This document shows positions 11,418-45,314 of a stretch of 64,000 bases of DNA, one piece after another (within the stretch, counting starts at the first letter, position 1; each line of letters opens with the position of its first letter). Made by a program: the position numbers and the translations under genes. The stretch comes from Octopus vulgaris (Eukaryota): NCBI GenBank assembly GCA_951406725.2, contig OX597839.1, forward strand, positions 22,382,001-22,446,000. The letters are read 5' to 3'. A model generated the notes under the pieces. The model saw only the letters and a program-made list of their open reading frames with translations. It was not told the DNA's origin and did not search any database.

Positions 11418-12889
11418 TTATTTCAATCAAAAATAAAACTCAGTCCATTTTTCATCAAAGCACTTCATTTTATAGGATTTTTATAACCGCTTGCCATATT
11501 GATAAGGGTATTGAAAAATTGATTTAACAAGGTTAAGCTATAAACCAGTTAAATTTATATTATAGATTTTTGGAATTTTTGTTATTACTGCTGCCTAGGA
11601 AAAACAAAAGCCAACCGGTTTGTAGTTGTAATGCATGCATTTAGTGTTGTAAAAAATACAAATCTACAAAAAATTCAGATATTGTTTGGTTCTGCAAGGT
11701 TTGATTTTTCTCTCTCCTTTGTCCATTGACAAATGAGTGGATAGGGAAGGGAGATAACTGATAAGCCGATGGCAGATGAAAGTAACTTCGGTTGACCTTC
11801 TTGACACTGACTCATAGCAAAAATGCAACACCCCTTTCAAAAAAAAAAAAACGTTTTTCACTGCTTTTTCAAAAAAAAAAAAGGATTTTTTTTTTTTATA
11901 ATCCTGTTCACAAAACACCAAATTAGTAGTTTCTGCTTTGATGAAGCTTTACCAATTTGTTTTTGATTTTTAATAAATTTTTAAAAATATCTTTTGCTTA
12001 TTGATTGACAAAAAGAGGGTGGGTCTCGATTTTGGAGATTTTTTTTGTAAAAACGGGAAAAATGAAATAGGGAGGAAAAATAAAATACTTAGGATTCTTG
12101 GATATGAATAATGTTTACATAGTATCTTCCACTACCCTTCAGCTTTTGTTTTATATAAAAATTATTTCGATACATGCAATATATTTCTAGTTTTCTCAGC
12201 TTGAGTGTAGTTGGGTCTCAAGGGGGCGGTACAAACCTAGAAATATGTGTTTTGTAGTGAAACCAAAATTTCCATTCAAATGGCAATTACCAGAGATTCA
12301 TGTTCGAGTCTAACCGTTTTAAGTCGATGTGGAAACCCAACCTATGTTGCAAATAGGTATACGAGTATTGTATAAATTTTATAATTGAAAACTTTACTTT
12401 ATTTTGTACCTATGAGTACACCAGGCTGGGGCTGCAATTGCACCCGTGGGTGGGGTTTCCCCACTCCTGGTTTAGACTGTTGTGAGAAAGGGTAGTTTTA
12501 TTCTACTGATGCATTGTGCATACGTGGTGCTCTGAGTCGCATCGGGGGTTTGGTGTGCTTCGGTGGTGGCATACTTACACGTCATCTGTCACTGCCGCAG
12601 ACACTTCTGCTGACCTTAGGCAGGCACTGGCAATGTAAATTCTGCTATGGCTATCCCGTAAAGTATGAGAGGAACCGTGGTATCAGATCAATGGTTTGTG
12701 CACTCGCTTGATAGAGCAGAGGTACCAGGCTGCCTCTGAGCAATAATGGTCAGTCACCTCTAAGCCAGAACCAAGTTGTTTTCCAAAAGTGTCTCAACCT
12801 CAAGGCGCATGCCTTAGCTCACCCGTTGCATCCTCACGGCAAGCAGCAGCGTCACCGGTGGAAATGCCACCCGACTTGTTCGAAGAGAT

Positions 12890-13384
12890 TGTAAAGGTCT
12901 ACATAGCTAAATAGTTGAATGATCTCCCTTGCAAGAAAGATTATAGAGTAACCTCCTTTTCCTAAGTTTCTCAAAGCATCTGTGTCATGAGATGTGATTC
13001 TTAATCATTCAAGAAGCTTTGCGTTTCTCTTGGAAGTTTCTAGAATGTCTAGCGTTGCATTAATAAAAAAACAGCTTGCTAACCCTGCTCTTCACTTCTT
13101 AGTCCATTGCTATATCCATCTATCTCTCTATGCCACATTACTGAAAACCACCACTTAGCTCTTATTTCTACATTTCCTATCTCTGAACTTTCTTGCATAG
13201 ATTACTTCATTCAACTAGATGCTGCTTATTGATTCTATGTATCGTCATCGACCAGTAAATAAAGTATATTTTTCTGTATTAAATATATAGTTCTTGAATT
13301 TATTCTTCATCTCTTTGTGAACTATTGTAATAACATACACACAGCCACATCAACACCTTGTACTGACTAAATATTTCCACTTCA
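12890..13384 (+). mobile_element. 5' LTR of Ty3/Gypsy element (495 bp, TG...CA)
   Basis: TGTAA...TTCA, internal AATAAA, followed by taaatTGG (PBS-like); inverted copy at 17175-18748. Confidence 0.88.
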
Positions 13385-13515
13385 TAAATTGGGTGACTCT
13401 GAGAATAATCATAAATTGGTTACTATTCGACATATTTAGTTATATTCTACTACTTTCCATATCACAATTTTCTTCTACTAAATTATCTTCAACTCAAACA
13501 ACGAGGATATCTGCT

Positions 13516-16500
13516 ATGAATCTTCCAGTTTTACCAATTTTCACAGCAGATATTGCTGCCTGCTTTGCCCAGTTAGAAGCATTTTTCTCTGCAAGCAAAC
13601 ACAATTCAGACCAACAGTAGCTCTACACTTTACTTAGTTCTATACCACCACCATTAACTGGAGAATTATGAGATATTGTTACATCTCCACTGGCAGATGC
13701 AACGTATTTATCAATTAAAAATGAAATTTTAAGACGAACCTTGCTCTCTTCTGAAAAGAAGGTTCGAAAATGTCTCAATGAGCATTTAGGAGACAGAACA
13801 CCATCAAAATGCGACAACTCTGCTGAAAGTAAGTTGCTTAACCAATTCTTCTCCTCCAGATTACCACAGAATGTTCAAGGTATACTCACCCATTTGACAG
13901 ACGTTAACACAGTCGACCAACTTGCAGCATCGGCAGATAAAATTTTGAGTATACAAAATCCACTCCAGAATAGAACAACACTCCTTTGCCAATTGCTACA
14001 GTTTCTTCTGAATTCAAAGAATTCTGTGAATCTATGCAGAAAACTATAGACAAGCTAGTCACAGAAGTTTGTCTCTTGCGTATCAATAGAAGTTCTTCAC
14101 CTCGTTGCTATCGTCGTTCAAATTCCTGTTCTCCCAGCAGATCAAACCTTTTTTGCTGGTATCATTATAAGTTTTGGTTCTGCAGCTAAAAGATGTGTTT
14201 CACCTTGTACATATAAAACTCAGGAAAACTAAAAAGCCAGACTCCGAGCGTAACCACAGTTCCCGGCATATTTTCTCTTAGTTGTGCATTTTACATACTA
14301 GATTTCAAGTTTAAGAAGGCATTTCTAGTTGATTCTTGAGCATCCTGCAGTATATGGCCGTCTGAATTTGTGAAATAAAAACTTTTCACTTCTGACAAAT
14401 CTCTTCAATCAGTCAACAGTTTTCTTATTAAAACTTTCGGTTAGATTTCACTCACACTGGACCTGAATCTCAGACGAAGTTTCCAGTGGGTTTTTACCAT
14501 TGCTGACCTTCCTCACCCAGTTTTAGGAGCTGATTTTCCCCATCATTTTCCCCTATTATTGGACGTCAAAAGAAATTGACTTATCGATAGCAATACACAG
14601 TTATGCGTTTCAGGAAGCTGTTTCAATTCCACTTCTGTCAGCCCACTGTTTTTTATTGCAAATCAACCAGATAAATGTCAAGCCTTGCTTTAGTCCTTTC
14701 CTGAACACATCCCCTCCGCCAGTTACCAACCACCTAAGAACGGTATGATCGAAAGTTTTACTTTTAATATCAATGCTTCATCTATTCATCATATAACCAC
14801 CAATGGATCTCCTGTTTTCTCGCATCTGAGACGCTTACCACCTGAAAAACTCAAAGCTGCTACAGCAGAGTTCAGCCACATGCTCCAGCTTGGAATAATT
14901 TGTCCTTCAAAGAGTAAATGGTCATCACCACTTCATTTAGTGAAAATGGAATCTAGTGATTTTAGACCTACTGGTGACCAAAGATGACTCAACACTGTTA
15001 CCATTCCAGAGAGCTATCCTATACCATCCTATACCACATATTTTGCATCTTCTCTGCATGGTTGCACTATTATCTCAAAAAAAGATTTGATATGAGCATG
15101 CCATCAGATTCCTGTCAACGCAAATGATATTCCAAAAATGGTTATTGCAGCTCCATTTGGGTCATTCGAATTTCCTACCATGCCCTTTGGGTTGAAGAAT
15201 TCTGCCAGTACTTCTCAGTGTTTCATTCATGAAGTAATACGTGGATTAGATTTTGTCTACACCTATATTGATGATCTTCTCATCACTAGATCTTCCGAGA
15301 AAAAACGTGAGCTTCGTTTCTAGCAACTTTTCAAAAGGCTTTCTCGATACAAAATTCGTATCAATGCTACCAACTGTATTTTCGGTGAGCCTTTTCTTAC
15401 TTTCCTTGGACACACCAAGTAAGGAATTGGGCCAGAAAAGGTTGAGGTTATACCTCATTGTGCTGAAACTATACACCCTCCCAACAAATTACTTTGACAC
15501 TGCAAGAACAGAACAGAAAAGATCACTTTAACTCCTGCTGAAATGCAAGCTTTCGGCGATGTTAAACAAAAATTTTCCTGTGTCTCCATATTGGCTCACC
15601 CCATTCCTGATGCCGAAATTTCTTTTGTAGTCAACAGGTCTGAAATTGGCATTGGCACAGTCCACCATGGCAAATAGCAACCTCTGGCCTTTTTCTCTAA
15701 GCATTCAGTCATGAACTGTTGGCTATCTGCCTCTCAGTTAAACACTTCCAACACCTTTTGAAAAGGAGAAACTTCACAAAATGCGTCGAGACAACTAATT
15801 GGACTTGTGTACCTGTGTCAGGTGTCAAAAATCCAAAGTACATAAACATATCCTCTGTCTGGAAGCTTGCAGGTTGGCATGCAGACGACATCATGCACCG
15901 TTAGGCACTTTCTCTTCTCCAAATACACAATTCCAGCACATGCATGCTGATATAGTCAGGGCTACACATTTTTATCAACTTGTATATCAATACTTATCGT
16001 TTTTCACTCTGGCCAGAAGTGATTCCACTCACAGACATCTCTTTCTCAAACTGTGGCACAAGCTTTAGTCACAAGATGGATCTCTCATTTCGGAACAGCT
16101 GTGAAAATAACAGATCGCGGACGTCAATTCGAAACTAAGCTTTTCCAGTAGCTTACCAAGATCCTAGGAACCAAACACACCCCCTCCGCCAGTTACCAAC
16201 CACCTAAGAACGGTATGATCGAAAGATTTCACCAACGCTTAAAGCTGCGTTCTGTGTTTCTGCTGATTCAACTCGATGTATTGAATTTCTTCCTCTTCTT
16301 CTCTTGGGTCTCTGCTCTTCTATCAAAGAAGACATGGGATATTCTCCTGCAGAATTACTTTATGGTTCTTCCTTGACGCTTCTTGGTCAGATGGTTGTTC
16401 CTGCAAACACGATAGTTTGTAATGCTGTGTGTTGTCTGTAGTGGGGTTGGAAATGGTTTGTTTTTTCGTGTGAGCCCTTTTTAGTCTATCAACAGAAACA

Positions 16501-17070
16501 GTGTCATTACGACCATTAAAGTCTAAGGTGCAAGAAGGTACACGAAAGGGTCCTGAATACGGTGCTGTTAAAGGGTGTTTAAAGGCATCGTTGAGAACAA
16601 AGAGTCCAGGAAGAATATGGAAGCACTCCGTCGGTTACGACGACGAGGGTTCCGGTTGATCCGAATCAACGGAACAGCCTGCTCGTAAAATTAACGTGTA
16701 AGTGGCTGAGCACTCCACAGACACGTGTACACCACCATCCCCTGCCGGAGCCTCGTGGAGCTTTAGGTGTTTTCGGTCAATAAACACTCACAACGCCCGG
16801 TCTGGGAATCGAAACCGCGATCCTATGACCGTGAGTCTGCTTCCCTAACCACTGGGCCATTGCGCCTCCACTCCAGGAAGAATAGTCCTTGGGCAAATAT
16901 GTTTTAATGTCTTGTTTTCTGGTGGTCACATGTGGGAACTTTGACATAATCCCGCAAGTGTTCAACAAAACTGGCAGTGTCGATATCTTGCGTGTTTGCA
17001 GGAACAATCATCTGACCAAGGAAGACATGTGTATTGGCCCAAGAATTTAACAAACATTTATTACATTTGA
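13516..17070 (+). pseudogene. Degenerate Ty3/Gypsy gag-pol (gag, protease, RT, partial RNaseH, integrase)
   Basis: gag FAQLEAFF, LGDRTPS, CWYH..C..PC; protease FLVDS; RT WSSPLHLV, MPFGLKN, YIDD; integrase HADIV, DRGRQFE, NGMIERFH; end GRHVYWPK..* at 17020-17070; many stops and frameshifts; 16412-17019 inverted. Confidence 0.92.
16618..16871 (-). mobile_element. Family C tRNA-derived SINE (internally deleted)
   Basis: 13 bp TSD tccaggaagaata at 16605-16617 and 16872-16884; A/B boxes; homologous to 44750-45127. Confidence 0.88.
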
Positions 17071-17174
17071 ACTGTGATATTGTTTCTATAGTTTGGCATT
17101 TTATGATGTATACATTTTTATTATTTTCATTATAGTACAATGTTACCTCTGCTTGGAGCAGGGGTTCCAATTTA

Positions 17175-18748
17175 TGAAGTGGAAATATTTAGTCAGTACA
17201 AGGTGTTGATGTGGCTGTGTGTATGTTATTACAAGAGTTCATAAAGAGATGAAGAATAAATTCAAGAACTATATATTTAACCCTTTCGTTACCAAACCGC
17301 CCGAAAAAAATTTTGGTTAATGTGACCAAGCCGCCCCAAACCGCCCGAATTTACCTATTCATATTTAAATGAGAATATCAGAGTAAATCTCTTTAGTACA
17401 TTCGTGAAAACACGTATTATACTTCGTAAACAGTTCAACTACAGTTTTGTACAAAAATCGAAGTGTAATTTTAATTCCGTGAATTATGGGAGATTTTTTT
17501 CCGAAATTTGTTCCTATTGTGTTTTCAAAATTTGTAATTCTGACAAAAAATGGATACGAATTTCATTATATCAAGCAGCGAGTCAGAATTCGAAGGATTT
17601 TCTACTGAAGACCTTCATAAATCTAACTTTATGACTGAAAAAAAAAGCACGTGGTATTTGATAATGAATCTGATGTTTCATTTTCCGAAAGTGAAAACAG
17701 TGAATCCGAGAGCTCCGACAGCGATAAAGAAAATGAATTGGCACCTGAATGGAGTGAAAATTTAAAAACTGTTTCTTTCGGTGATTTTTCTGAAGAAACT
17801 GGACCAAGCCACAGACTTTCCCAGAAGAGTAAAGCCTTAGACTATTTCTTTTTACTTTTTCGAATGAGCCTATTTGAAATCATTACGGCGGAAACAAACT
17901 GTTACGCTAAACGTAAACAAAGCGAAAGAAAGGATAGTTTGTTATTTCCCACAACCTTAAATGAAATTAAGGCCTATTTTGCCATAAATATTATTATGGG
18001 TATCAGAAAGTTACCCAGAATAACAAATTCTATCGTAAAATTTTGTTGTATACCCAATTGAATATTAGCTAATAACCCATTTTCTATAGCGATGTTTGAA
18101 CAAAATTTTAATAATTTTATATATTGTTGAATTTACCTGTATCTACCTGCAATTAGAGTCACTTTGTGACAAAAATTATAGTATAGAATTGGTTGAGAAC
18201 ATTTCATTAAATTATCTTCCAAAATTCATGTTAATATATTGATAAATAAAAAAGTTATAGTTGTTTAATGAAACCAGACTAAATTTATGATTACGTTAGA
18301 AATTAATTGAAACACATAAGGGGTGTAATTTGGTCAGAAATATAGTAACGAAAGGGTTAATACAGAAAAATATATTTTATTTACTGGTCGATGACGATAC
18401 ATAGAATCAATAAGCAGCATCTAGTTGAATGAAGTAATCTATGCAAGAAAGTTCAGAGACAGAAAATGTAGAAATAAGAGCTAAGTGGTGGTTTTCAGTC
18501 ATGTGGCATAGAGAGATAGATGGACATAGCAATGGACTAAGAAGTGAAGAGCAGGGTTAGCAAGCTGTTTTTTATTAATGCAACACTAGACATTCTAGAA
18601 ACTTCCAAGAGAAATGCTAAGCTTCTTGATTGATTAAGAATCACATCTCATGACACAGATGCTTTGAGAAACTTAGGAAAGGGAGGTTACTCTATAATCT
18701 TTCTTGCAAGGGAGATCATTCAACTATTTAGCTATGGAGACCATTACA
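17175..18748 (-). mobile_element. Second Gypsy LTR in inverted orientation, interrupted by piggyBac
   Basis: reverse complement aligns along the length of 12890-13384 once 17281-18360 is removed (494 bp). Confidence 0.9.
17281..18356 (+). mobile_element. Internally deleted piggyBac element (1076 bp) with 5' transposase fragment
   Basis: TTAA TSD, TIR CCCTTTCGTTAC/GTAACGAAAGGG; acidic N-terminus, then DYFFLLF..ETNCYA..TT.NEIKAYF..IIMGI..LP; frameshift in poly-A at ~17640. Confidence 0.93.
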
Positions 18749-19094
18749 AAATCAAGACATAAAGGATCGCTTGCATACTTGTTGTTTGAGGTGTCGAGCA
18801 GATACCACACTGCAATCTCACAAATGACACGATCTGCCCTTCCGAGGCTGTGATGATGGCAGCCACGGATTGAGTTGAAGAAGAGGTCAGGTGGTGAGCA
18901 GTGTGAGAGCTAGCAAGAAAAAGGGAGCACTTGGATGGGGACGAGTGGGAGAGAGGGAATGCAGTCGAGTGCAGCCGTACGGTCCTGGCTAAGCTGCTAG
19001 AAGGTGCCAGATCACTGCAGGGATTGACGATGGTGGACATGATATCGATCATGCGCACAGAGTGCTGCCAGCAGCAGGAGGCATGACCACCACC

Positions 19095-20248
19095 AAGGCG
19101 GCGATCTGGCAGAATTGTTAGCACGCCGGGCGAAATGCGTAGCCGTATTTCGTCTGCCGTTACGTTCTGAGTTCAAATTCCGCCGAGGTCGACTTTGCCT
19201 TTCATCCTTTCGCGGTCGATAAAATAAGTACCAGTTATGCACTGGGGTCAATATAATCGACTTAATCCGTTTGTCTGTCCTTGTTTGTCCTCTCTGTGTT
19301 TAGCCCCTTGTGGGTAGTAAAGAAATAGGTATTTTGTTTGCCGTTACGTTCTGAGTTCAAATTCCGCCGAGGTCAACTTTGCCTTTCATCCTTTCGCGGT
19401 CGATAAAATAAGTACCAGTTATGCACTGGGGTCAATATAATCGACTTAATCCGTTTGTCTGTCCTTGTTTGTCCTCTCTGTGTTTAGCCCTTTGTGGGTA
19501 GTAAAGAAATAGGTATTTTGTTTGCCGTTACGTTCTGAGTTCAAATTCCGCCGAGGTCGACTTTGCCTTTCATCCTTTCGCGGTCGATAAAATAAGTACC
19601 AGTTATGCACTGGGGTCGATATAATCGACTTAATCCGTTTGTCTGTCCTTGTTTGTCCTCTCTGTGTTTAGCCCCTTGTGGGTAGTAAAGAAATAGGTAT
19701 TTCGTTTGCCGTTACGTTCTGAGTTCAAATTCCGCCGAGGTCGACTTTGCCTTTCATCCTTTCGCGGTCGATAAAATAAGTACCAGTTATGCACTGGGGT
19801 CGATATAATCGACTTAATCCGTTTGTCTGTCCTTGTTTGTCGTCTCTGTGTTTAGCCCCTTGTGGGTAGTAAAGAAATAGGTATTTTTTTTGCCGTTACG
19901 TTCTGAGTTCAAATTCCGCCGAGGTCGACTTTGCCTTTCATCCTTTCGCGGTCGATAAAATAAGTACCAGTTATGCACTGGGGTCGATATAATCGACTTA
20001 ATCCGTTTGTCTGTCCTTGTTTGTCCTCTCTGTGTTTAGCCCCTTGTGGGTAGTAAAGAAATAGGTATTTTGTTTGCCGTTACGTTCTGAGTTCAAATTC
20101 CGCCGAGGTCGACTTTGCCTTTCATCCTTTCGCGGTCGATAAAATAAGTACCAGTTATGCACTGGGGTCGATATAATCGACTTAATCCGTTTGTCTGTCC
20201 TTGTTTGTCCCCTCTGTGTTTAGCCCCTTGTGGGTAGTAAAGAAATAG
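19095..20248 (+). repeat. Family B SINE whose 184-bp body is tandemly repeated six times
   Basis: marker gactttgcct-like at 19191, 19375, 19559, 19743, 19927, 20111; single head; flanking gaggca(t/c)gaccac TSD. Confidence 0.93.
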
Positions 20249-21025
20249 AGGCACGACCACAATGGAAGCAGATATTGATGGGAAGCGGCACGTGCAGCAG
20301 TAGAACAACAAGCAGGAGAGATGGATGGAAATCCAGCGTGGCCAACTCTGCAGAACGGTTGCTGTGGTGCTGCTAGAAAATGGCAGAGATCGAAGGCAAG
20401 TGACAAGAGAAGCATGATGTCGTCCACATGCCAACCTGCAAGCTTCTCGGCAGAGGTAAACGAGATATCGAACACCTGTGTGTACCTGCTTCTCTTGTCA
20501 GTTGCCTTTGATCTCTGCCGTTTTCTGGCAGCTGTTGTTGCTTTGCTGCATACATGCACGGTCCAGCTCCTTCGTACTGTTGACAGAGCTGTCTGGCAGC
20601 ACTGGTGCGTTAGACTTATTCCTGCATTCCGGATGAGCACAGGCGAGTGTAGGTCCATGTGGAAAGAGTCAAGCAATTGCTGTCTTTTATTGCAGAACAT
20701 GAAATCCTGTAAATCTTCTTGCTCATTTGGCCTTGGGTTATAAACAGAGAACAAATTTAGAGGGGATTGTCGGTATTTTACATCTACTTCTAGCATAGGT
20801 GTTGGCACTCAAGAGCCCTTAATTATAATTAGCTTTTATAATTATATACTTAAAAACTAATTTTACCGATGCAGTCATTTTTATACACTAGGCCACTGAT
20901 ATGATCATTTTTATGATTATATCCTTAACTTACAGATATAGTTACACATTATATATATATCTGGTATGTACATTATATATGTGTATATACATATATGTAT
21001 ATAATATATCCAATGTATATATACA

Positions 21026-29250: not shown

Positions 29251-29430
29251 TGTGGTGAGACTGAGTGGTGAGACCCGTATGGGACGATGATTTCCCTTCA
29301 CAAGTACTGATCGGGCACTGATGACTTCCTGGGGCTCGTCCCCTTAAGGGTCAGCCACATTCAGGTGGCAAATATACTTCATGATGTCAGGCTGCGACTG
29401 TTTGCAGCTCCTTCAGAGATTTATTATTGC

Positions 29431-29732
29431 TTATATATATATATGTATATATATATGTATGTATGTATGTATGCATGTATATGTATGTATGTATGTATTT
29501 GTATATATGTATGTATATGTATATATATATATGTATGTATATATATATGTATGTATATATATATATGTATGTATATATATATATATGTATGTATATATAT
29601 ATATATGTATGTATATATATATGTATGTATGTATATATATATATATGTATGTATATATATATGTATGTATGTATATATATATATATGTATGTATATATAT
29701 ATGTATGTATGTATATATGTATGTATGTATAT

Positions 29733-29763
<31 letters not shown>

Positions 29764-30225
29764 TGTATATATATATATATGTATGTATATATATATATAT
29801 GTATGTATATATGTATATATGTATGTATATATGTATATATGTATGTATATGTATGTATGTATGTATGTATATATATATATATGTATGTATATATATATGT
29901 ATGTATATATGTATGTATGTATATATATATGTATGTATGTATATATATATATATGTATATATATATATGTATGTATATATATATGTATGTATGTATATAT
30001 ATATGTATGTATGTATATATATATGTATGTATGTATATATATATATATGTATGTATGTATATATATATATATGTATGTATGTATATATATATATATGTAT
30101 GTATGTATATATATATATATATGTATGTATATATATATATATATGTATGTATATATATATATATATGTATGTATATATATATATATGTATGTATATATAT
30201 ATATGTATGTATATATATATGTATG

Positions 30226-30256
<31 letters not shown>

Positions 30257-30577
30257 GTATGTATATATATATATATGTATGTATATATATATGTATGTAT
30301 ATATATATATATATGTATGTATATATGTATGTATGTATATATATATATATGTATGTATATATATATATATGTATGTATATATGTATGTATGTATATATAT
30401 ATATGTATGTATATATATATATGTATATATATATATGTATATATATATATGTATATATATATATGTATATATATATATGTATATATATATATGTATATAT
30501 ATATATGTATGTATATATATATATATGTATGTATATATATATGTATGTATGTATATATATGTATGTATGTATATATG

Positions 30578-30608
<31 letters not shown>

Positions 30609-30685
30609 GTATGTATGTATGTATATATATATATATATGTATGTATATATATATATATGTATGTATGTATGTATGTATATGTATG

Positions 30686-30719
<34 letters not shown>

Positions 30720-30745
30720 TATATATGTATATATATATGTATGTG

Positions 30746-30778
<33 letters not shown>

Positions 30779-30969
30779 GTATATATATATATATGTATGT
30801 ATATATATATGTATGTATGTATATATATATATGTATGTATATATATATGTATGTATATATATATGTATGTATATATATATATATGTATGTATATATATAT
30901 ATATGTATGTATATATATATGTATGTATATATATATATGTATGTATATATATATGTATGTATGTATATA

Positions 30970-31002
<33 letters not shown>

Positions 31003-31019
31003 ATGTATGTATATGTATG

Positions 31020-31053
<34 letters not shown>

Positions 31054-31077
31054 TGTATGTATATATATATGTATGTG

Positions 31078-31110
<33 letters not shown>

Positions 31111-31157
31111 GTATATATATGTATGTATATATGTATGTATGTATGTATATATGTATG

Positions 31158-31196
<39 letters not shown>

Positions 31197-31217
31197 GTAT
31201 ATATATGTATGTATATG

Positions 31218-31304
<87 letters not shown>

Positions 31305-31325
31305 GTAAGTATATATATGTATGTA

Positions 31326-31361
<36 letters not shown>

Positions 31362-31443
31362 TGTATATATGTATGTATGTATGTATATATGTATGTATAT
31401 ATGTATGTATGTATGTATATATATGTATGTATGTATGTATGTA

Positions 31444-31476
<33 letters not shown>

Positions 31477-31513
31477 ATATGTATGTATGTATGTATATAT
31501 GTATGTATGTATG

Positions 31514-31547
<34 letters not shown>

Positions 31548-31637
31548 TGTATGTATATATATGTATGTATGTATGTATATATATATGTATGTATGTATAT
31601 ATGTATATATATATATGTATGTATGTATATATGTATG

Positions 31638-31671
<34 letters not shown>

Positions 31672-31777
31672 TATATGTATATATGTATGTATGTATGTAT
31701 GTATATATGTATGTATATATGTATGTATGTATATATGTATGTATGTATATATGTATGTATGTATATATGTATGTATG

Positions 31778-31811
<34 letters not shown>

Positions 31812-31833
31812 TGTATGTATGTATGTATGTATG

Positions 31834-31867
<34 letters not shown>

Positions 31868-32207
31868 TATATGTATGTATGTATGTATATATGTATATAT
31901 GTATATATATATGTATGTATGTATATATATATGTATGTATGTATATATATATGTATGTATATATATATGTATGTATATATATATGTATGTATGTGTATAT
32001 ATGTATGTATGTGTATATATGTATGTATGTATATATATGTATGTATGTATGTATATATATATGTATGTATGTATATATATGTATGTATGTATGTATATAT
32101 ATATGTATGTATGTATATATATATATGTATGTATGTATATATGTATGTATGTATGTATGTATATATGTATGTATGTATGTATGTATATATGTATGTATGT
32201 ATGTATG

Positions 32208-32241
<34 letters not shown>

Positions 32242-32311
32242 TATATGTATGTATGTATATATGTATGTATATATGTATGTATATATGTATGTATGTATAT
32301 ATGTATGTATG

Positions 32312-32345
<34 letters not shown>

Positions 32346-32379
32346 TATATATATATGTATGTATGTATATATATGTATG

Positions 32380-32410
<31 letters not shown>

Positions 32411-32875
32411 ATATGTATGTATGTATATATGTATGTATATATGTATGTATGTATGTATATATGTATGTTTGTATGTATGTATATGTATGTATGTATATAT
32501 ATATATATGTATGTATGTATATATATATGTATATATATATGTATGTATATATATATGTATGTATATATATATGTATGTATATATATATGTATGTATATAT
32601 ATATGTATGTATGTATATATGTATGTATGTATATATGTATGTATGTATATGTATGTATGTATATGTATGTATGTATATGTATGTATGTATATATATATGT
32701 ATGTATATATGTATGTATGTATATATGTATGTATGTATATATGTATGTATGTATATATATATGTATGTATGTATATATATATGTATGTATATATGTATGT
32801 ATATATATATATATGTATGTATATATATATGTATGTATATATATATATATGTATGTATATATATATGTATGTATG

Positions 32876-32938
<63 letters not shown>

Positions 32939-33039
32939 ATATGTATGTATGTATATATGTATGTATATATGTATGTATGTATATATGTATGTATATATGT
33001 ATGTATGTATATATGTATGTATGTATATATGTATGTATG

Positions 33040-33073
<34 letters not shown>

Positions 33074-33950
33074 TGTATGTATATATGTATGTATGTATAT
33101 ATGTATGTATGTATATATGTATGTATGTATATATGTATGTATATATATATGTATGTATATATATATATGTATGTATATATGTATGTATATATATATATGT
33201 ATGTATATATATATATGTATATATGTATGTATGTATATATGTATGTATGTATATATGTATGTATATATATATGTATGTATGTATGTATGTATATATGTAT
33301 GTATGTATGTATGTATATATGTATGTATGTATGTATATATGTATGTATGTATGTATGTATATATGTATGTATGTATATATGTATGTATATATGTATGTAT
33401 GTATATATGTATGTATGTATATATGTATGTATATATGTATGTATGTATATATATATGTATGTATGTATATATATGTATGTCTTTCACCATGTGCTTCTGC
33501 TAACACCAGCCGTTTTTTTCTCTATCTCCGTTGCCCGCTCCGGGATCTTTCTTTCCTCTCTCTTCCTTCTTTATGTTTCCGACGAAGAGCTCCGCTCGAA
33601 ACGTCATACCTTCCTGCTTCCATTTCCTGAGCGCCTATTAATAATAATACTGTAATTGTTCCCTTGTTGTTGTTTTTTTGTTTCCCGTTTGGATTAAAAA
33701 TATGTATATATATATGTATATATGTATGTATGTATATATATATGTATATATATATGTATGTATGTATATATGTATATATATATGTATGTATGTATATATG
33801 TATGTATATATGTATGTATGTATATATGTATGTATGTATATATATATGTATGTATGTATATATGTATGTATGTATATATGTATGTATGTATATATATATG
33901 TATGTATGTATGTATATATATATGTATGTATGTATGTATATATATATGTA

Positions 33951-33986
<36 letters not shown>

Positions 33987-34355
33987 TGTATGTATATATA
34001 TTTATGTATGTATGTATATATATTTATGTATTGTATGTATGTATGTATGTATCTATGTATGTATGTATGTATATATATTTATGTATGTATGTATATATAT
34101 ATGTATGTATGTATATATATTTATGTATGTATGTATATATATTTATGTATGTATATATATGTATGTACGTATATATATTTATGTATGTATGTATATATAT
34201 ATGTATGTATATATATATATGTATATATATATGTATGTATATATATATGTATATATATATATGTATGTATATATATATGTATATATATATGTATATATAT
34301 ATTTATGTATATATGTATGTATGTATATATATATGTATATATATATGTATGTATG

Positions 34356-34389
<34 letters not shown>

Positions 34390-34487
34390 TGTATGTATGT
34401 ATGTATGTATGTATGTATATATGTATGTATATATGTATGTATATATGTATGTATGTATATATGTATGTATGTATATATATATGTATG

Positions 34488-34518
<31 letters not shown>

Positions 34519-34940
34519 ATATATATATGTATGTATGTATATAATGTATGTATGTACGTATGTATATATATATGTACGTATGTATGTATATATGTACGTA
34601 TGTATGTATATATGTATGTATATATATATGTATGTATATATATATGTACGTATGTATGTATATATGTATGTATATATATATGTATGTATGTATATATGTA
34701 TGTATGTATATATGTATGTATGTATGTATATAATGTATGTATGTATGTATGCATGTATGTATGTATGCATGTATGTATATATGCATGTATGTATATATGT
34801 ATGTATGTATATATGTATGTATGTATGTATATGTGTATATATGTATGTATGTATATGTATGTATGTATATGTGTATATATGTATGTATGTATATGTATTA
34901 TGTATATATATATATATATGTATGTATATATATATGTATG

Positions 34941-35025
<85 letters not shown>

Positions 35026-35086
35026 ATATATATGTATGTATATATATATATGTATGTATATATATATATGTATGTATGTATATATA

Positions 35087-35122
<36 letters not shown>

Positions 35123-35166
35123 TGTATGTATGTATATATGTATGTATGTATATATATATGTATGTA

Positions 35167-35231
<65 letters not shown>

Positions 35232-35268
35232 ATATGTATGTATGTATATATGTATGTATGTATATATG

Positions 35269-35300
<32 letters not shown>

Positions 35301-35400
35301 TGTATGTATGTATATATGTATGTATGTATATATGTATGTATGTATGTATATATGTATATATGTATGTATGTATATGTATGTATGTATATATGTATGTATG

Positions 35401-35462
<62 letters not shown>

Positions 35463-35512
35463 TATATGTATGTATGTATGTATATATGTATATATATATA
35501 TATGTATGTATG

Positions 35513-35552
<40 letters not shown>

Positions 35553-35652
35553 TGTATGTATATATATATGTATGTATATATATATGTATGTATGTATATA
35601 TATATGTATATATATATGTATATATATATGTATGTATGTATATATATATGTA

Positions 35653-35685
<33 letters not shown>

Positions 35686-35730
35686 ATATATATGTATGTA
35701 TATATATATGTATGTATATATGTATGTATG

Positions 35731-35764
<34 letters not shown>

Positions 35765-35774
35765 TGTATGTATG

Positions 35775-35810
<36 letters not shown>

Positions 35811-35966
35811 TGTATGTATGTATGTATGTATGTATGTATGTATGTATGTATGTATGTATGTATGTATGTATGTATGTATGTATGTATGTATGTATGTATG
35901 TATGTATGTATGTATGTATGTATGTATGTATGTATATATGTATGTATATATATGTATGTATGTATA

Positions 35967-35999
<33 letters not shown>

Positions 36000-36076
36000 A
36001 TATATATGTATGTATGTATATATGTATGTATATATGTATATATGTATGTATATATGTATGTATATATGTATGTATG

Positions 36077-36110
<34 letters not shown>

Positions 36111-36218
36111 TGTATGTATGTATATATATATGTATGTATGTATATGTATGTATGTATATGTATGTATGTATATGTATGTATGTATGTATATGTATGTATG
36201 TATGTATATGTATGTATG

Positions 36219-36257
<39 letters not shown>

Positions 36258-36788
36258 GTGTATATATATGTATGTGTATATATATGTATGTATGTGTATA
36301 TATATGTATGTATGTATATATATATGTATGTATGTATGTATGTATATATGTATGTATATATGTATATATATTTATGTATGTATGTATATATGTATATATA
36401 TTTATGTATATATGTATATATATTTATGTATGTATGTATATATGTATGTATGTATATATATATGTATGTATGTATATATGTATGTATGTATGTATATATG
36501 TATGTATGTATATATGTATGTATGTATATATGTATGTATGTATATATGTATGTATATATGTATGTATATATGTATGTATATATGTATGTATATGTATGTA
36601 TGTGTATGTATGTATATATGTATGTATGTATATATGTATGTATGTATATATGTATGTATGTATATATGTATGTATGTATATATGTATGTATATATGTATG
36701 TATATATGTATGTATGTATGTATATATGTATGTATGTATATATGTATGTATGTATATATGTATGTATGTATATATGTATGTATGTATG

Positions 36789-36822
<34 letters not shown>

Positions 36823-37038
36823 TGTATGTATATATGTATGTATGTATGTATATATGTATATATATATATATGTATGTATGTATATATATATGTATGTATA
36901 TATATATGTATGTATATATATATGTATGTATGTATATATATATGTATATATATATGTATATATATATGTATGTATGTATATATATATGTATATATATATG
37001 TATGTATGTATGTATGTATATATATATATGTATGTATG

Positions 37039-37072
<34 letters not shown>

Positions 37073-37170
37073 TGTATGTATGTATGTATGTATGTATGTA
37101 TGTATGTATGTATGTATATATGTATGTATGTATATATGTATGTATGTATGTATATATGTATGTATGTATG

Positions 37171-37203
<33 letters not shown>

Positions 37204-37350
37204 ATATGTATGTATGTATATATATATGTATGTATATATATATGTATGTATGTATATATATGTATGTATGTATATATATGTATGTATGTATATATATATG
37301 TATGTATGTATATATGTATGTATATATATATATGTATGTATGTATGTATG

Positions 37351-37384
<34 letters not shown>

Positions 37385-37410
37385 TGTATGTATGTATATA
37401 TGTATGTATG

Positions 37411-37444
<34 letters not shown>

Positions 37445-37556
37445 TGTATGTATGTATGTATGTATGTATATATATGTATGTATGTATGTATATGTATGTA
37501 TGTATATGTATGTATGTATATGTATGTATGTATGTATATGTATGTATGTATATATG

Positions 37557-37595
<39 letters not shown>

Positions 37596-37936
37596 GTGTA
37601 TATATATGTATGTATGTGTATATATATGTATGTATGTATATATATATATGTATGTATGTATATATATATGTATGTATGTATATATATATATGTATGTATG
37701 TATGTATGTATATATGTATGTATATATGTATATATATTTATGTATGTATGTATATATGTATATATATTTATGTATGTATGTATATATGTATATATATTTA
37801 TGTATGTATGTATATATATATGTATGTATGTATATATATTTATGTATGTATGTATATATATATATATGTATGTATGTATATATGTATATATATATGTATG
37901 TATGTATGTATGTATATATATATGTATTTATGTATG

Positions 37937-37970
<34 letters not shown>

Positions 37971-38240
37971 TGTATATATGTATGTATATATGTATGTATA
38001 TATATATGTATGTATATATGTATGTATGTATGTATATATATATATATGTATGTATGTATATATATATGTATGTATGTATATATGTATGTATATATGTATG
38101 TATATATATATGTATGTATGTATATATGTATGTATATATATATGTATGTATGTATATATATATGTATGTATGTATATATATATGTATGTATGTATATATG
38201 TATGTATGTATGTATATGTATGTATGTATGTATGTATGTA

Positions 38241-38273
<33 letters not shown>

Positions 38274-38436
38274 ATATATATATGTATATATGTATGTATG
38301 TATGTATATATGTATGTATGTATGTATATATGTATGTATGTATGTATATATGTATGTATGTATGTATGTATATATATATGTATTTATGTATATATATATG
38401 TATGTATGTATATATATATGTATGTATGTATATATG

Positions 38437-38468
<32 letters not shown>

Positions 38469-38578
38469 TGTATGTATGTATATATGTATGTATGTATATA
38501 TATATGTATGTATGTATATATATATGTATGTATGTATATATATATGTATGTATATATATATATGTATGTATGTATGTG

Positions 38579-38610
<32 letters not shown>

Positions 38611-38702
38611 TGTATGTATGTATATATGTATGTATGTATGTATGTATATATATGTATGTATGTATGTATGTATATGTATGTATATATGTATGTATGTATA
38701 TG

Positions 38703-38755
<53 letters not shown>

Positions 38756-38972
38756 GTGTATATATATGTATGTATGTGTATATATATGTATGTATGTATA
38801 TATATATGTATGTATGTATATATATATATGTATGTATATATATATGTATGTATGTATGTATATATGTATGTATATATGTATATATATTTATGTATGTATG
38901 TATATATGTATATATATTTATGTATGTATGTATATATATATGTATGTATGTATATATATTTATGTATGTATG

Positions 38973-39003
<31 letters not shown>

Positions 39004-39100
39004 ATATGTATGTATATATATATGTATATATATATGTATGTATATATCTATATATATATGTATGTATGTATGTATGTATATATATATGTATTTATGTATG

Positions 39101-39134
<34 letters not shown>

Positions 39135-39458
39135 TGTATGTATATATGTATGTATATATGTATGTATGTATATATGTATGTATGTATATATGTATGTATG
39201 TATATATGTATGTATGTATGTATATATGTATGTATGTATATATATATGTATGTATGTATATATATATGTATGTATGTATGTATATATATATGTATGTATG
39301 TATATATGTATGTATATATATATGTATGTATATATATATGTATGTATATATGTATATATATATGTATGTATGTATATATGTATGTATATATATATGTATG
39401 TATGTATATATATATGTATATATATGTATGTATGTATGTATGTATATATGTATGTATG

Positions 39459-39491
<33 letters not shown>

Positions 39492-39528
39492 GTATATATA
39501 TATGTATGTATGTATGTATATATGTATG

Positions 39529-39559
<31 letters not shown>

Positions 39560-39656
39560 ATATATGTATGTATGTATGTATATATATATATGTATGTATG
39601 TATATATATATGTATGTATGTATATATATATGTATGTATGTATATATGTATGTATG

Positions 39657-39687
<31 letters not shown>

Positions 39688-39816
39688 GTATGTATGTATA
39701 TATATATGTATGTATGTATATATATATGTATGTATGTATATATATGTATGTATGTATATATATGTATGTATGTATATATATATGTATGTATGTATATATG
39801 TATGTATATATATATG

Positions 39817-39847
<31 letters not shown>

Positions 39848-39860
39848 GTATATATATATA
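29431..39860. repeat. ~10.4 kb (TA)n/(TATG)n compound microsatellite in the last intron, interrupted at 33481-33700
   Basis: direct reading. Confidence 0.98.
33481..33700 (+). mobile_element. Short element with hammerhead-like core (33579-33605), Penelope pLTR/retrozyme-like
   Basis: CCGACGA-A-GAGC-tcc-GCTC-GAAA-CG-TC; shares ttcctgagcg with 61556-61757. Confidence 0.65.
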
Positions 39861-39869
39861 ATGATAATC

Positions 39870-40287
39870 CTTTCTACCAAAGGCACAATGCCTGACATTT
39901 TGGGGGAAGAGACTAGTTGATTACATCGACCTTAGTACACACCTAGTACTTATTTTAACGATCCCAAAAGGATGAAAGGCAAAGTTGCCCTCGGTGGAAT
40001 TTGAACTCAGAATGTAAGGAATGGATAAAATGCTGCTAAGCATTTTTCCAGATGTGCTAACCACTCTGCCAGCTTGCAAGCCTTAATAATAATTTATTTT
40101 AATAATAATAATAATAATAACTGTTTCTCCGTTACTTAACGGTTCGGCAAAAGAGACCGATAGAATAAGTACTGGGCTTACAAAAGAATAAGTCCTGGGG
40201 TCGAGTTGCTTGATTAAAGGTGGTGCTCCAGCATGGCCGCAGTCAAATGACTGAAACAAGTAAAAGAGTAAAAGAGAGTAAAAGAGT
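39870..40287. mobile_element. Family B SINE (-, 39870-40085) and family A 3' half (+, 40124-40287)
   Basis: identity to the other copies. Confidence 0.75.
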
Positions 40288-44719: not shown

Positions 44720-45314
44720 GTTTTACTCTTTACTCTTTTACTTGTTTCAATGGCCCAGTGGTTAGGGCAGCGGACTCGCGGTCATAGGATCGCGGTTTCG
44801 ATTCCCAGACCGGGCGTTGTGAGTGTTTACTGAACGAAAACACCTAAAGCTCCACGAGGCTCCGGCAGAGGATGGTGGTGATCCCTGCTGTACTCTTTTA
44901 CCACAACTTTCTCTCACTCTTACTTCCTGTTTTTGTGGTACCTGTATTTCAAAGGGGCCGGCCTTGTCACTCTCTGTGTCACGCTGAATATCTCTGAGAA
45001 CTACGTTAAGGGTACACGTGTCTGTGGAGTGCTCAGCCACTTACACGTTGATTTCACGAGCATGCTTTTCCGTTGATTCGGATCAACCGGAACCCTCGTC
45101 GTCGTAACCGACGGAGTCCTTCCATCCACTTGTTTCAGTCATTTGACTGTGGCCATGCTGGAGCACCGTCTTTAGTCGAGCAAATTGACACCAGGATTTA
45201 TTCTTTGTAAGCCTAGTACTTATTCTATTGGTCTCTTTTACCGAACCGCTAAGTTACAGGGATGTAAACACACCAGCATTGGTTATCAAGCGATGTTGTG
45301 GGGGACAAACACAG

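What the first reader, a model, noticed from the sequence alone, without database searches (positions are those of the whole stretch)
12890..18748. Ty3/Gypsy element bounded by inverted rather than direct LTRs
Seen in sequence: 5' LTR (12890-13384), PBS-like taaatTGG, gag-pol on the + strand ending GRHVYWPK..TGA (17070), a short 3' UTR and a polypurine-tract-like ggagcagggg (17155-17164). Where the direct 3' LTR should begin there is a complete LTR in reverse orientation (17175-18748). That LTR also carries the 8 nt (taaattgg) that follow the 5' LTR, so it looks copied from a 5' LTR. I see no TSD (gagat vs aaatc). Established: Gypsy LTRs are direct repeats with a 4-6 bp TSD. Inference: aberrant strand transfer or auto-integration, or an antisense second insertion followed by deletion. 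The result is two inward-facing LTR promoters, able to give convergent or fold-back RNA.
Basis: partly seen in the sequence, partly recalled or inferred. Interest (0 to 1): 0.72.

Follow-up and report, generated by a model that had tools for sequence, protein, structure and literature searches.

The report
Dead retrotransposon with two left ends
This is one broken copy of a Gypsy-type jumping gene whose two end repeats face each other; it likely arose from a copying slip that has left at least two smaller look-alikes in the same genome, and its ends were likely re-copied from one another long after it died, so it is a by-product and not a spreading new element.

Summary
The inverted LTR is real: 12890-13384 against 17175-18748, 14 differences in 494 sites, with a young piggyBac-like insert in the right copy. 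Both flanks are one decayed 28S rDNA piece, collinear, with a 4-bp duplication (AGAT/AAAT). So this is a single integrase-type insertion with U3 at both outer ends, not two insertions plus a deletion. The junction is unique: 18 of 18 other tail-LTR junctions are direct. Two other family loci (2 of 24 PBS-bearing places) also have U3-out ends with a TSD. The copy is long dead (4.6% private changes, even over codon positions; private stops; a missed internal inversion), yet its LTR pair is far more alike than 8 other pairs (6-17%). The arms were therefore made alike again late, at DNA level. Best reading (0.5): born inverted when (+) strong-stop DNA joined at the PPT, then homogenised. Close rival (0.33): one late template switch replaced a normal 3' LTR. 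There is no propagating lineage and no expression data. The scan noted such 'two left ends' copies before, in this genome and in another (unreviewed notes).

The parts
12469..12889 (+). Left flank: decayed fragment of the 3' part of 28S rDNA
   Evidence: blastn 74-77% to L062-L075; L063 is LSU_rRNA_eukarya, E 1e-191
12886..12889 (+). Target site duplication, left copy (AGAT)
   Evidence: single copy in the rDNA empty site, 7 of 7 loci
12890..13384 (+). 5' LTR (495 bp, TG...CA)
   Evidence: 44 matches in the own genome, others <=87% over full length; termini
13385..13405 (+). 5-nt spacer and decayed tRNA-Trp-type primer binding site
   Evidence: compared with the copies L093, L117, L136; PBS type as in PMC2582038
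13406..16411 (+). Leader, gag, protease, RT, RNase H and integrase core, broken by stops and frameshifts
   Evidence: 130 private changes in 2850 compared sites
14704..14759 (+). 56-bp templated insertion copied from 16174-16229 (2 differences)
16412..17020 (-). Integrase C-terminal region inverted against other copies; 30-bp inverted duplication 16382-16411 / 16991-17020; about 45 nt found before the tail in other copies are absent
   Evidence: junction at 17020 bridged by contigs of runs X2, X4 and X8
16618..16871 (.). SINE-like repeat inserted with a 13-bp direct repeat
   Evidence: 95% to 44748-45125; flanking repeat
17021..17154 (+). End of integrase and 3' UTR (native family tail)
17155..17166 (+). 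Junction at the PPT position; purine-rich, unlike other copies; either a PPT/PBS microhomology join or a 9-nt snap-back of 17145-17153 (8/9)
   Evidence: fold-back score reached at 40 of 5750 control positions, 0.7%
17167..17174 (-). Spacer plus first PBS bases (TAAATTGG), as behind a 5' LTR
17175..18748 (-). Inverted LTR, U3 start facing the right flank
   Evidence: 14 differences in 494 sites to the 5' LTR; sister to it in an LTR tree, support 1.0
17281..18356 (+). Non-autonomous piggyBac-like element in a TTAA, short TIRs, only in the right LTR
   Evidence: DDE_Tnp_1_7 E 7e-08; ends; 39 other places at 98-99% among 40 scored of 1190 candidates
18749..18752 (+). Target site duplication, right copy (AAAT, one transition from AGAT)
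18753..18890 (+). Right flank: continuation of the same decayed 28S rDNA fragment
   Evidence: one X1 contig covers 18723-19090 with 0 differences

Best explanation
This is a single, dead, TSD-flanked Gypsy copy with a U3 end on both sides, likely born inverted during reverse transcription and likely homogenised between its two arms much later. Shown: one insertion into a 28S rDNA relic; U3 at both outer ends; the right arm carries the spacer and PBS start of a 5' LTR; the inner junction sits at the PPT; the arms are about 2.8% apart while the body has about 4.5% private neutral decay. Inferred step 1: a (+) strong-stop DNA (LTR plus part of the PBS) was joined head-to-head to a plus strand that had reached the PPT, probably through a few G:C bases shared by PBS and PPT. 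Copying ran off at a U3 start, giving a linear DNA with two U3 att ends that integrase inserted normally. Inferred step 2: long after, gene conversion or a template switch between the two 500-bp inverted arms reset their identity, possibly in the same episode that made the internal inversion and the 56-bp templated insert. A piggyBac-like element then entered the right arm.
For: TSD and collinear flanks. Both junctions fall on natural RT boundaries: the U3 start and the PPT/PBS. The same U3-out, TSD-flanked, PBS-bearing geometry occurs at two other family loci: L093 (LTR+PBS+20 nt joined to an inverted LTR, TSD 3/4, arms 8-10% apart) and L153 (mini-LTR + full 18-nt PBS joined to inverted U3, TSD 4/4). 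Dead-end (+) strong-stop DNAs carrying part of the tRNA copy accumulate in Ty3 particles (PMC5371799, passages). Late reset: 14/494 against 6.3-16.7% in 8 other pairs (P=5e-5 against 6.9%); 15 shared rare states against 8 unshared, compared with 25 against 159 in 5 other pairs (Fisher P=3e-7); body 130/2850 private, third-position share 18/45, 6 of 8 inspected stop codons found in no other copy. Intra-element LTR conversion is reported in plants (PMC7251063, abstract). Two of the 14 arm differences lie in the outer 12 nt, as expected of an unconverted tip (P=0.04, post hoc).
Against: It needs two rare events. None of 8 other LTR pairs shows a reset, including the tight inverted pair L093. The PBS/PPT microhomology needs two later changes to fit the junction, and GGGGT is in the PPT zone of only 2 of 16 copies; a snap-back reading fits 8/9 and suggests DNA repair. 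Conversion would have to span nearly the whole arm (shared rare states from position 5 to 493). The L093 arms are not sisters in the LTR tree, so that locus may have another origin. Ordinary post-insertion inversions are common in this family (L077/L078, L080, L135, L140, L144). No contig covered the inner junction (17148-17162) in 4 of 4 runs.
Confidence: 0.5

Rival explanations
1. A normal element with direct LTRs inserted; much later a single replication or repair template switch (MMBIR/FoSTeS type) left the strand at the PPT, copied the 5' LTR backwards and returned at the LTR's own 8-bp terminal inverted repeat, replacing the 3' LTR and keeping the TSD.
For: One event explains both the orientation and the 2.8% identity. 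Two other templated duplications in the copy have a similar divergence (3/86; P=0.04 against 9%). A snap-back-like 9-mer lies at the junction. LTR termini are short inverted repeats, and inversions flanked by short inverted repeats are ascribed to template switching or MMBIR (PMC8755829, passages). Inversions are frequent in other copies.
Against: The exit within 12 nt of the PPT/U3 border and the entry 8 nt past the U5 end would both be coincidences; a join through the terminal repeats would not bring in TAAATTGG. The window's own decayed PBS offers no clear microhomology at the junction. None of the 5 other inversion loci returns at an LTR terminus.
Confidence: 0.33
2. A young insertion (about 1.4% old) of a two-U3 cDNA made in trans from an already decayed source copy, so that no later homogenisation is needed.
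For: It is the simplest reading of LTR identity as an age. Other sister LTR pairs also have stems of about 0.03. Ty3 does not reset its PBS from tRNA (PMC5371799), so a decayed PBS is not fatal.
Against: No source copy near 97% was found: the best others are 87% (LTR, 40 scored of 417), 86% over the full RT query (40 of 91) and 93-95% over the short tail (40 of 331). All family copies seen are old. The TSD already carries a mismatch. Runs labelled as other organisms hold the same decayed body, about 2.6% apart (49/1852).
Confidence: 0.07
3. Two separate insertions in opposite orientation followed by deletion.
For: The right arm looks like a 5' LTR. Opposed LTRs of separate origin occur elsewhere (L140).
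Against: The outer flanks are one continuous rDNA target with a 4-bp duplication; the arms are sisters with support 1.0.
Confidence: 0.03
4. A propagating lineage with inverted LTRs, or a misassembly.
For: No read contig bridged the inner junction.
Against: Lineage: no second junction and 18 of 18 tails lead into direct LTRs. Misassembly: the arms differ at 14 sites and by a transposon, the TSD is precise, and an X1 contig runs from 26 nt inside the inverted U3 end into the flank with 0 differences (under the tool's 31-nt bar for bridging, and X1 may be the assembly's own sample).
Confidence: 0.04

Closest known systems
CsRn1 clade of Ty3/Gypsy LTR retrotransposons (PwRn1, AgCR; PMC2582038, passages read)
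   Same: 4-bp TSD, tRNA-Trp-type PBS, CX2HX9CX3C gag motif (whole in 2 of 13 other loci scanned, split over two frames in the window), PR-RT-RH-IN order, TG...CA LTRs.
   Different: LTRs are inverted; the 3' arm carries the spacer and PBS start; the integrase tail is inverted; the copy is dead. Clade membership by RT phylogeny was not tested.
Ginger1/Ginger2 DNA transposons (PMC2836005, passages read)
   Same: Gypsy-type integrase between inverted TGT-starting termini with a 4-bp TSD. That paper suggests Ginger TIRs may have come from two LTRs in opposite orientation.
   Different: It keeps gag, RT and RNase H; the arms are whole 495-bp LTRs, not 40-270-bp TIRs; it is single-copy with no sign of cut-and-paste movement; the integrase is broken.
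DIRS-1 tyrosine-recombinase retrotransposons (PMC7192593, PMC5633606: search listing and start of abstract only; anatomy recalled)
   Same: Inverted terminal repeats around gag-RT.
   Different: It has a DDE-type integrase and a TSD; no tyrosine recombinase was found; inversion is not the family's normal form.
Template-switch/MMBIR inversions at short inverted repeats (PMC8755829, passages) and intra-element LTR gene conversion (PMC7251063, abstract)
   Same: Templated inverted copies, short homologies, LTR identity younger than the element.
   Different: Here a whole 500-bp LTR is involved, across about 3.8 kb.

Membership tests
Ty3/Gypsy | RT-RNase H-integrase order with Ty3-like RT | tested here: met
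   Pfam order on +; best PDB matches are an RT/RNase H chain (4ol8) and Ty3-G Gag-Pol, E about 1e-10
Ty3/Gypsy | Direct LTRs | tested here: not met
   Inverted in this copy; direct in 18 of 18 other tail-LTR junctions, so the family meets it and the copy does not
Ty3/Gypsy | 4-6 bp TSD | tested here: met
   AGAT/AAAT against the rDNA empty site; family TSD of 4 bp
CsRn1 clade | tRNA-Trp PBS | tested here: met
   Clear in other copies, matching the PBS given in PMC2582038; decayed in the window. Not compared with this genome's own tRNA-Trp
CsRn1 clade | CX2HX9CX3C gag motif | tested here: met
   Full spacing in L086 and L134 (2 of 13 loci scanned; L086 holds a stop inside it); partial in L128 and L130; split over two frames in the window
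CsRn1 clade | RT phylogeny groups with CsRn1/Kabuki | not tested
   No reference sequences were fetched
Ginger DNA transposons | Transposase only, no RT/RNase H, multiple copies sharing TIRs | tested here: not met
   RT and RNase H present; single copy
DIRS | Tyrosine recombinase instead of integrase; no TSD (recalled) | tested here: not met
   Integrase-core match and TSD; no recombinase family among the 17 stretches scanned

The most novel reading that the evidence does not exclude
Head-to-head 'two-U3' cDNAs are a regular by-product of CsRn1-type reverse transcription and integrate normally. This locus is the extreme case, a whole gag-pol packed between 500-bp inverted ends that then homogenise like palindrome arms: a natural snapshot of a one-step route from an LTR retrotransposon to a TIR-bounded (Ginger-like) element.
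Probability: 0.35. Interest if true: 0.55.

Novelty: new variant of a known kind. Interest (0 to 1): 0.3.

Why it matters
If born inverted, it shows that Gypsy integrase accepts a DNA with two U3 ends and that LTR-to-TIR geometry can arise in one step. PMC2836005 calls that transition unclear and proposes two separate insertions. The locus also shows that LTR identity can understate the age of an element about threefold, and that LTR finders requiring direct repeats miss such copies. It has no shown function: the copy is dead, unique and sits in an rDNA relic.

Tried and rejected
The whole-window repeat finder was swamped by microsatellites. No contig covered 17148-17162 in X4, X2, X6 or X8, and none covered 18903-19090 in X2, X6 or X8; holes prove nothing, so the state of the right LTR in organisms B-D is open. 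The junction pattern gave 3 hits against 1 control hit; one is the window and the other two (L161, L162) hold no family sequence. The PBS pattern with one mismatch gave 37 hits against 31 control hits; 21 new places were fetched, of which 11 showed the family LTR. The 24-column gap shared by both window LTRs is not unique: 3 other covering rows of 48 have overlapping gaps, so it is weak support. An argument that reverse transcription must reset the PBS was dropped after reading PMC5371799. The right flank found only itself in the own-genome search and was identified through the left flank's loci. Literature searches listed no paper describing integrated two-U3 Gypsy copies; the library lacks most subscription journals, so this is no proof of absence. 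No supplements were read; the PBS/PPT alignment of PMC2582038 lies in one and may bear on the PPT reading. Protein homologue, fold and complex tools were not used, as they could not change the verdict.
Full report
Setting.

Observation. A self-comparison gives two inverted matches: 12889-13282 with 18749-18357 (96.7%) and 13279-13392 with 17280-17167 (98.2%). Between them lies a 1076-bp piggyBac-like element in a duplicated TTAA, with 39 other places at 98-99% among 40 scored. The right arm ends exactly at the LTR's first base and carries TAAATTGG, which in this family follows 5' LTRs. The body has RT, RNase H and integrase remnants in Gypsy order.

The TSD exists. The left flank matches loci that are 28S rDNA. 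In 7 of 7 such loci the left flank ends, and the right flank resumes, at the same site; the 4-mer AGAT stands once in rDNA and on both sides in the window, the right copy reading AAAT. Family TSDs are 4 bp: 9 of 21 solo-type copies match 4/4, 6 match 3/4 and 6 match worse.

The family is normal and this junction is unique. In 18 of 18 other tail-LTR junctions (five belong to one duplicated array on C12) the LTR is direct. A search with the junction found no sister among 40 scored of 331 candidates; a pattern search found only the window and two unrelated hits. The window also has a second inversion, 16412-17020, with a 30-bp inverted duplication, and a 56-bp templated insertion. Contigs from runs labelled organisms A, B and D bridge the 17020 junction, so that inversion is real and older than their split; pieces from run X2 differ from the window at 49 of 1852 letters.

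The arms are too alike for the age of the copy. They differ at 14 of 494 sites (2.8%, CI 1.6-4.7%). Eight other pairs differ by 6.3-16.7%, and the nearest other LTR is 8.5-9.2% away. The window arms share 15 rare states against 8 unshared; five other pairs share 25 against 159 (P=3e-7). In a tree of 48 LTR rows longer than 400 nt (2 shorter rows left out) they are sisters on a stem of 0.057 with tips of 0.021 and 0.013; the median terminal branch of the others is 0.072. Two other sister pairs have stems near 0.03, so part of the stem is inherited. The body, compared with 26 other loci, has 130 private letters in 2850 sites (4.6%), 18 of 45 at third codon positions in six in-frame stretches (neutral-like; P=0.005 against 60%), and 6 of 8 inspected stop codons occur in no other copy. 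No source copy near 97% was found. So one arm was copied onto the other at DNA level well after the element died. This inference is the firmest in the report.

When did the inversion arise? Both junctions lie on reverse-transcription landmarks: the U3 start outside, and PPT against PBS inside. Among 24 other places with an LTR and PBS (hand tally over; duplicated arrays counted once) two have the same U3-out, TSD-flanked form. L093 is LTR + PBS + 20 nt joined to an inverted, slightly truncated LTR, TSD 3/4, arms 8-10% apart. L153 is a mini-LTR + the full 18-nt PBS joined to 238 nt of inverted U3, TSD 4/4. A Ty3 review states that dead-end (+) strong-stop DNAs with part of the tRNA copy accumulate in particles (PMC5371799, passages). 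I therefore favour birth as a two-U3 cDNA, followed by conversion between the arms (conversion between LTRs: PMC7251063, abstract). Against this: two rare steps are needed; none of 8 other pairs is reset; the L093 arms are not sisters; the junction also reads as a 9-nt snap-back (8/9; 0.7% of control positions); and ordinary inversions occur at five other family places. A single late template switch returning at the LTR's terminal inverted repeat (mechanism class: PMC8755829, passages) remains a close rival. Only an orthologue can separate the two, and the read contigs did not cover the inner junction in 4 of 4 runs.

Comparison with known systems. The family has the PBS, gag motif and TSD length described for the CsRn1 clade (PMC2582038, passages); RT phylogeny was not run. 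The copy resembles a Ginger transposon in outline, and PMC2836005 (passages) suggests that Ginger TIRs came from opposed LTRs, but it keeps RT and shows no movement as a unit. It is not DIRS. Four searches listed no paper on integrated two-U3 Gypsy copies, in an incomplete library. Earlier unreviewed notes of this scan describe similar copies in this and another genome; they moved me from the one-step to the two-step reading and prompted the census that found L153. They are leads, not evidence.

Verdict. A real, single, dead insertion with inverted LTRs and a TSD, belonging to a small recurrent class of by-products. It is not a new mobile lineage, and there is no evidence on promoters or fold-back RNA. 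Interest 0.3.

Noticed in passing
L093:8202-9261 (G000:C1:174587701-174588760): Second U3-out locus: two opposed LTRs, one with a full PBS and 20 nt of leader, no coding region, TSD 3/4; the arms are 8-10% apart and not sisters in the tree.
   Followed up: partly
L153:1360-1654 (G000:C9:39176159-39176453): About 295-bp U3-out insertion: 36-nt mini-LTR, spacer, exactly 18 nt of PBS, then 238 nt of inverted U3; TSD 4/4. It looks like a MITE but is built from LTR ends.
   Followed up: partly
L077, L078, L080, L135, L140, L144: Other copies of the family carry inversions of internal parts or opposed LTRs; L076-L078 belong to a duplicated array on C12 in which some copies are inverted inside and others are not.
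   Followed up: partly
window 12469-12889 and 18749-18890: Decayed, deleted 28S rDNA fragment far from the rDNA arrays; rDNA-type units recur about every 18.4 kb on C20.
   Followed up: partly
window 19145-20248: Six tandem copies of a 184-bp unit, 98% alike, related to a dispersed SINE-like repeat.
   Followed up: no
window 15852-15896 and 20369-20532: A 45-nt stretch inside the integrase region, unaligned in other copies, matches 20412-20456 in reverse (89%); that region is itself partly palindromic and lies in a 189-aa open stretch with no Pfam match.
   Followed up: no
L029:1860-3050: The same piggyBac-like family has inserted into another LTR of this family near the same LTR position.
   Followed up: no
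window 13385-13422: The spacer-PBS start is repeated about 28 nt downstream; similar short repeats of the PBS start occur in L140, L147 and L150.
   Followed up: no
window 29300-39950: About 10 kb of simple repeat, almost without C on the + strand.
   Followed up: no
G000:C7:108941912 and 108958357 (L150, L122): Two near-identical LTR-gag pieces 16 kb apart, back to back: probably a local inverted duplication.
   Followed up: no
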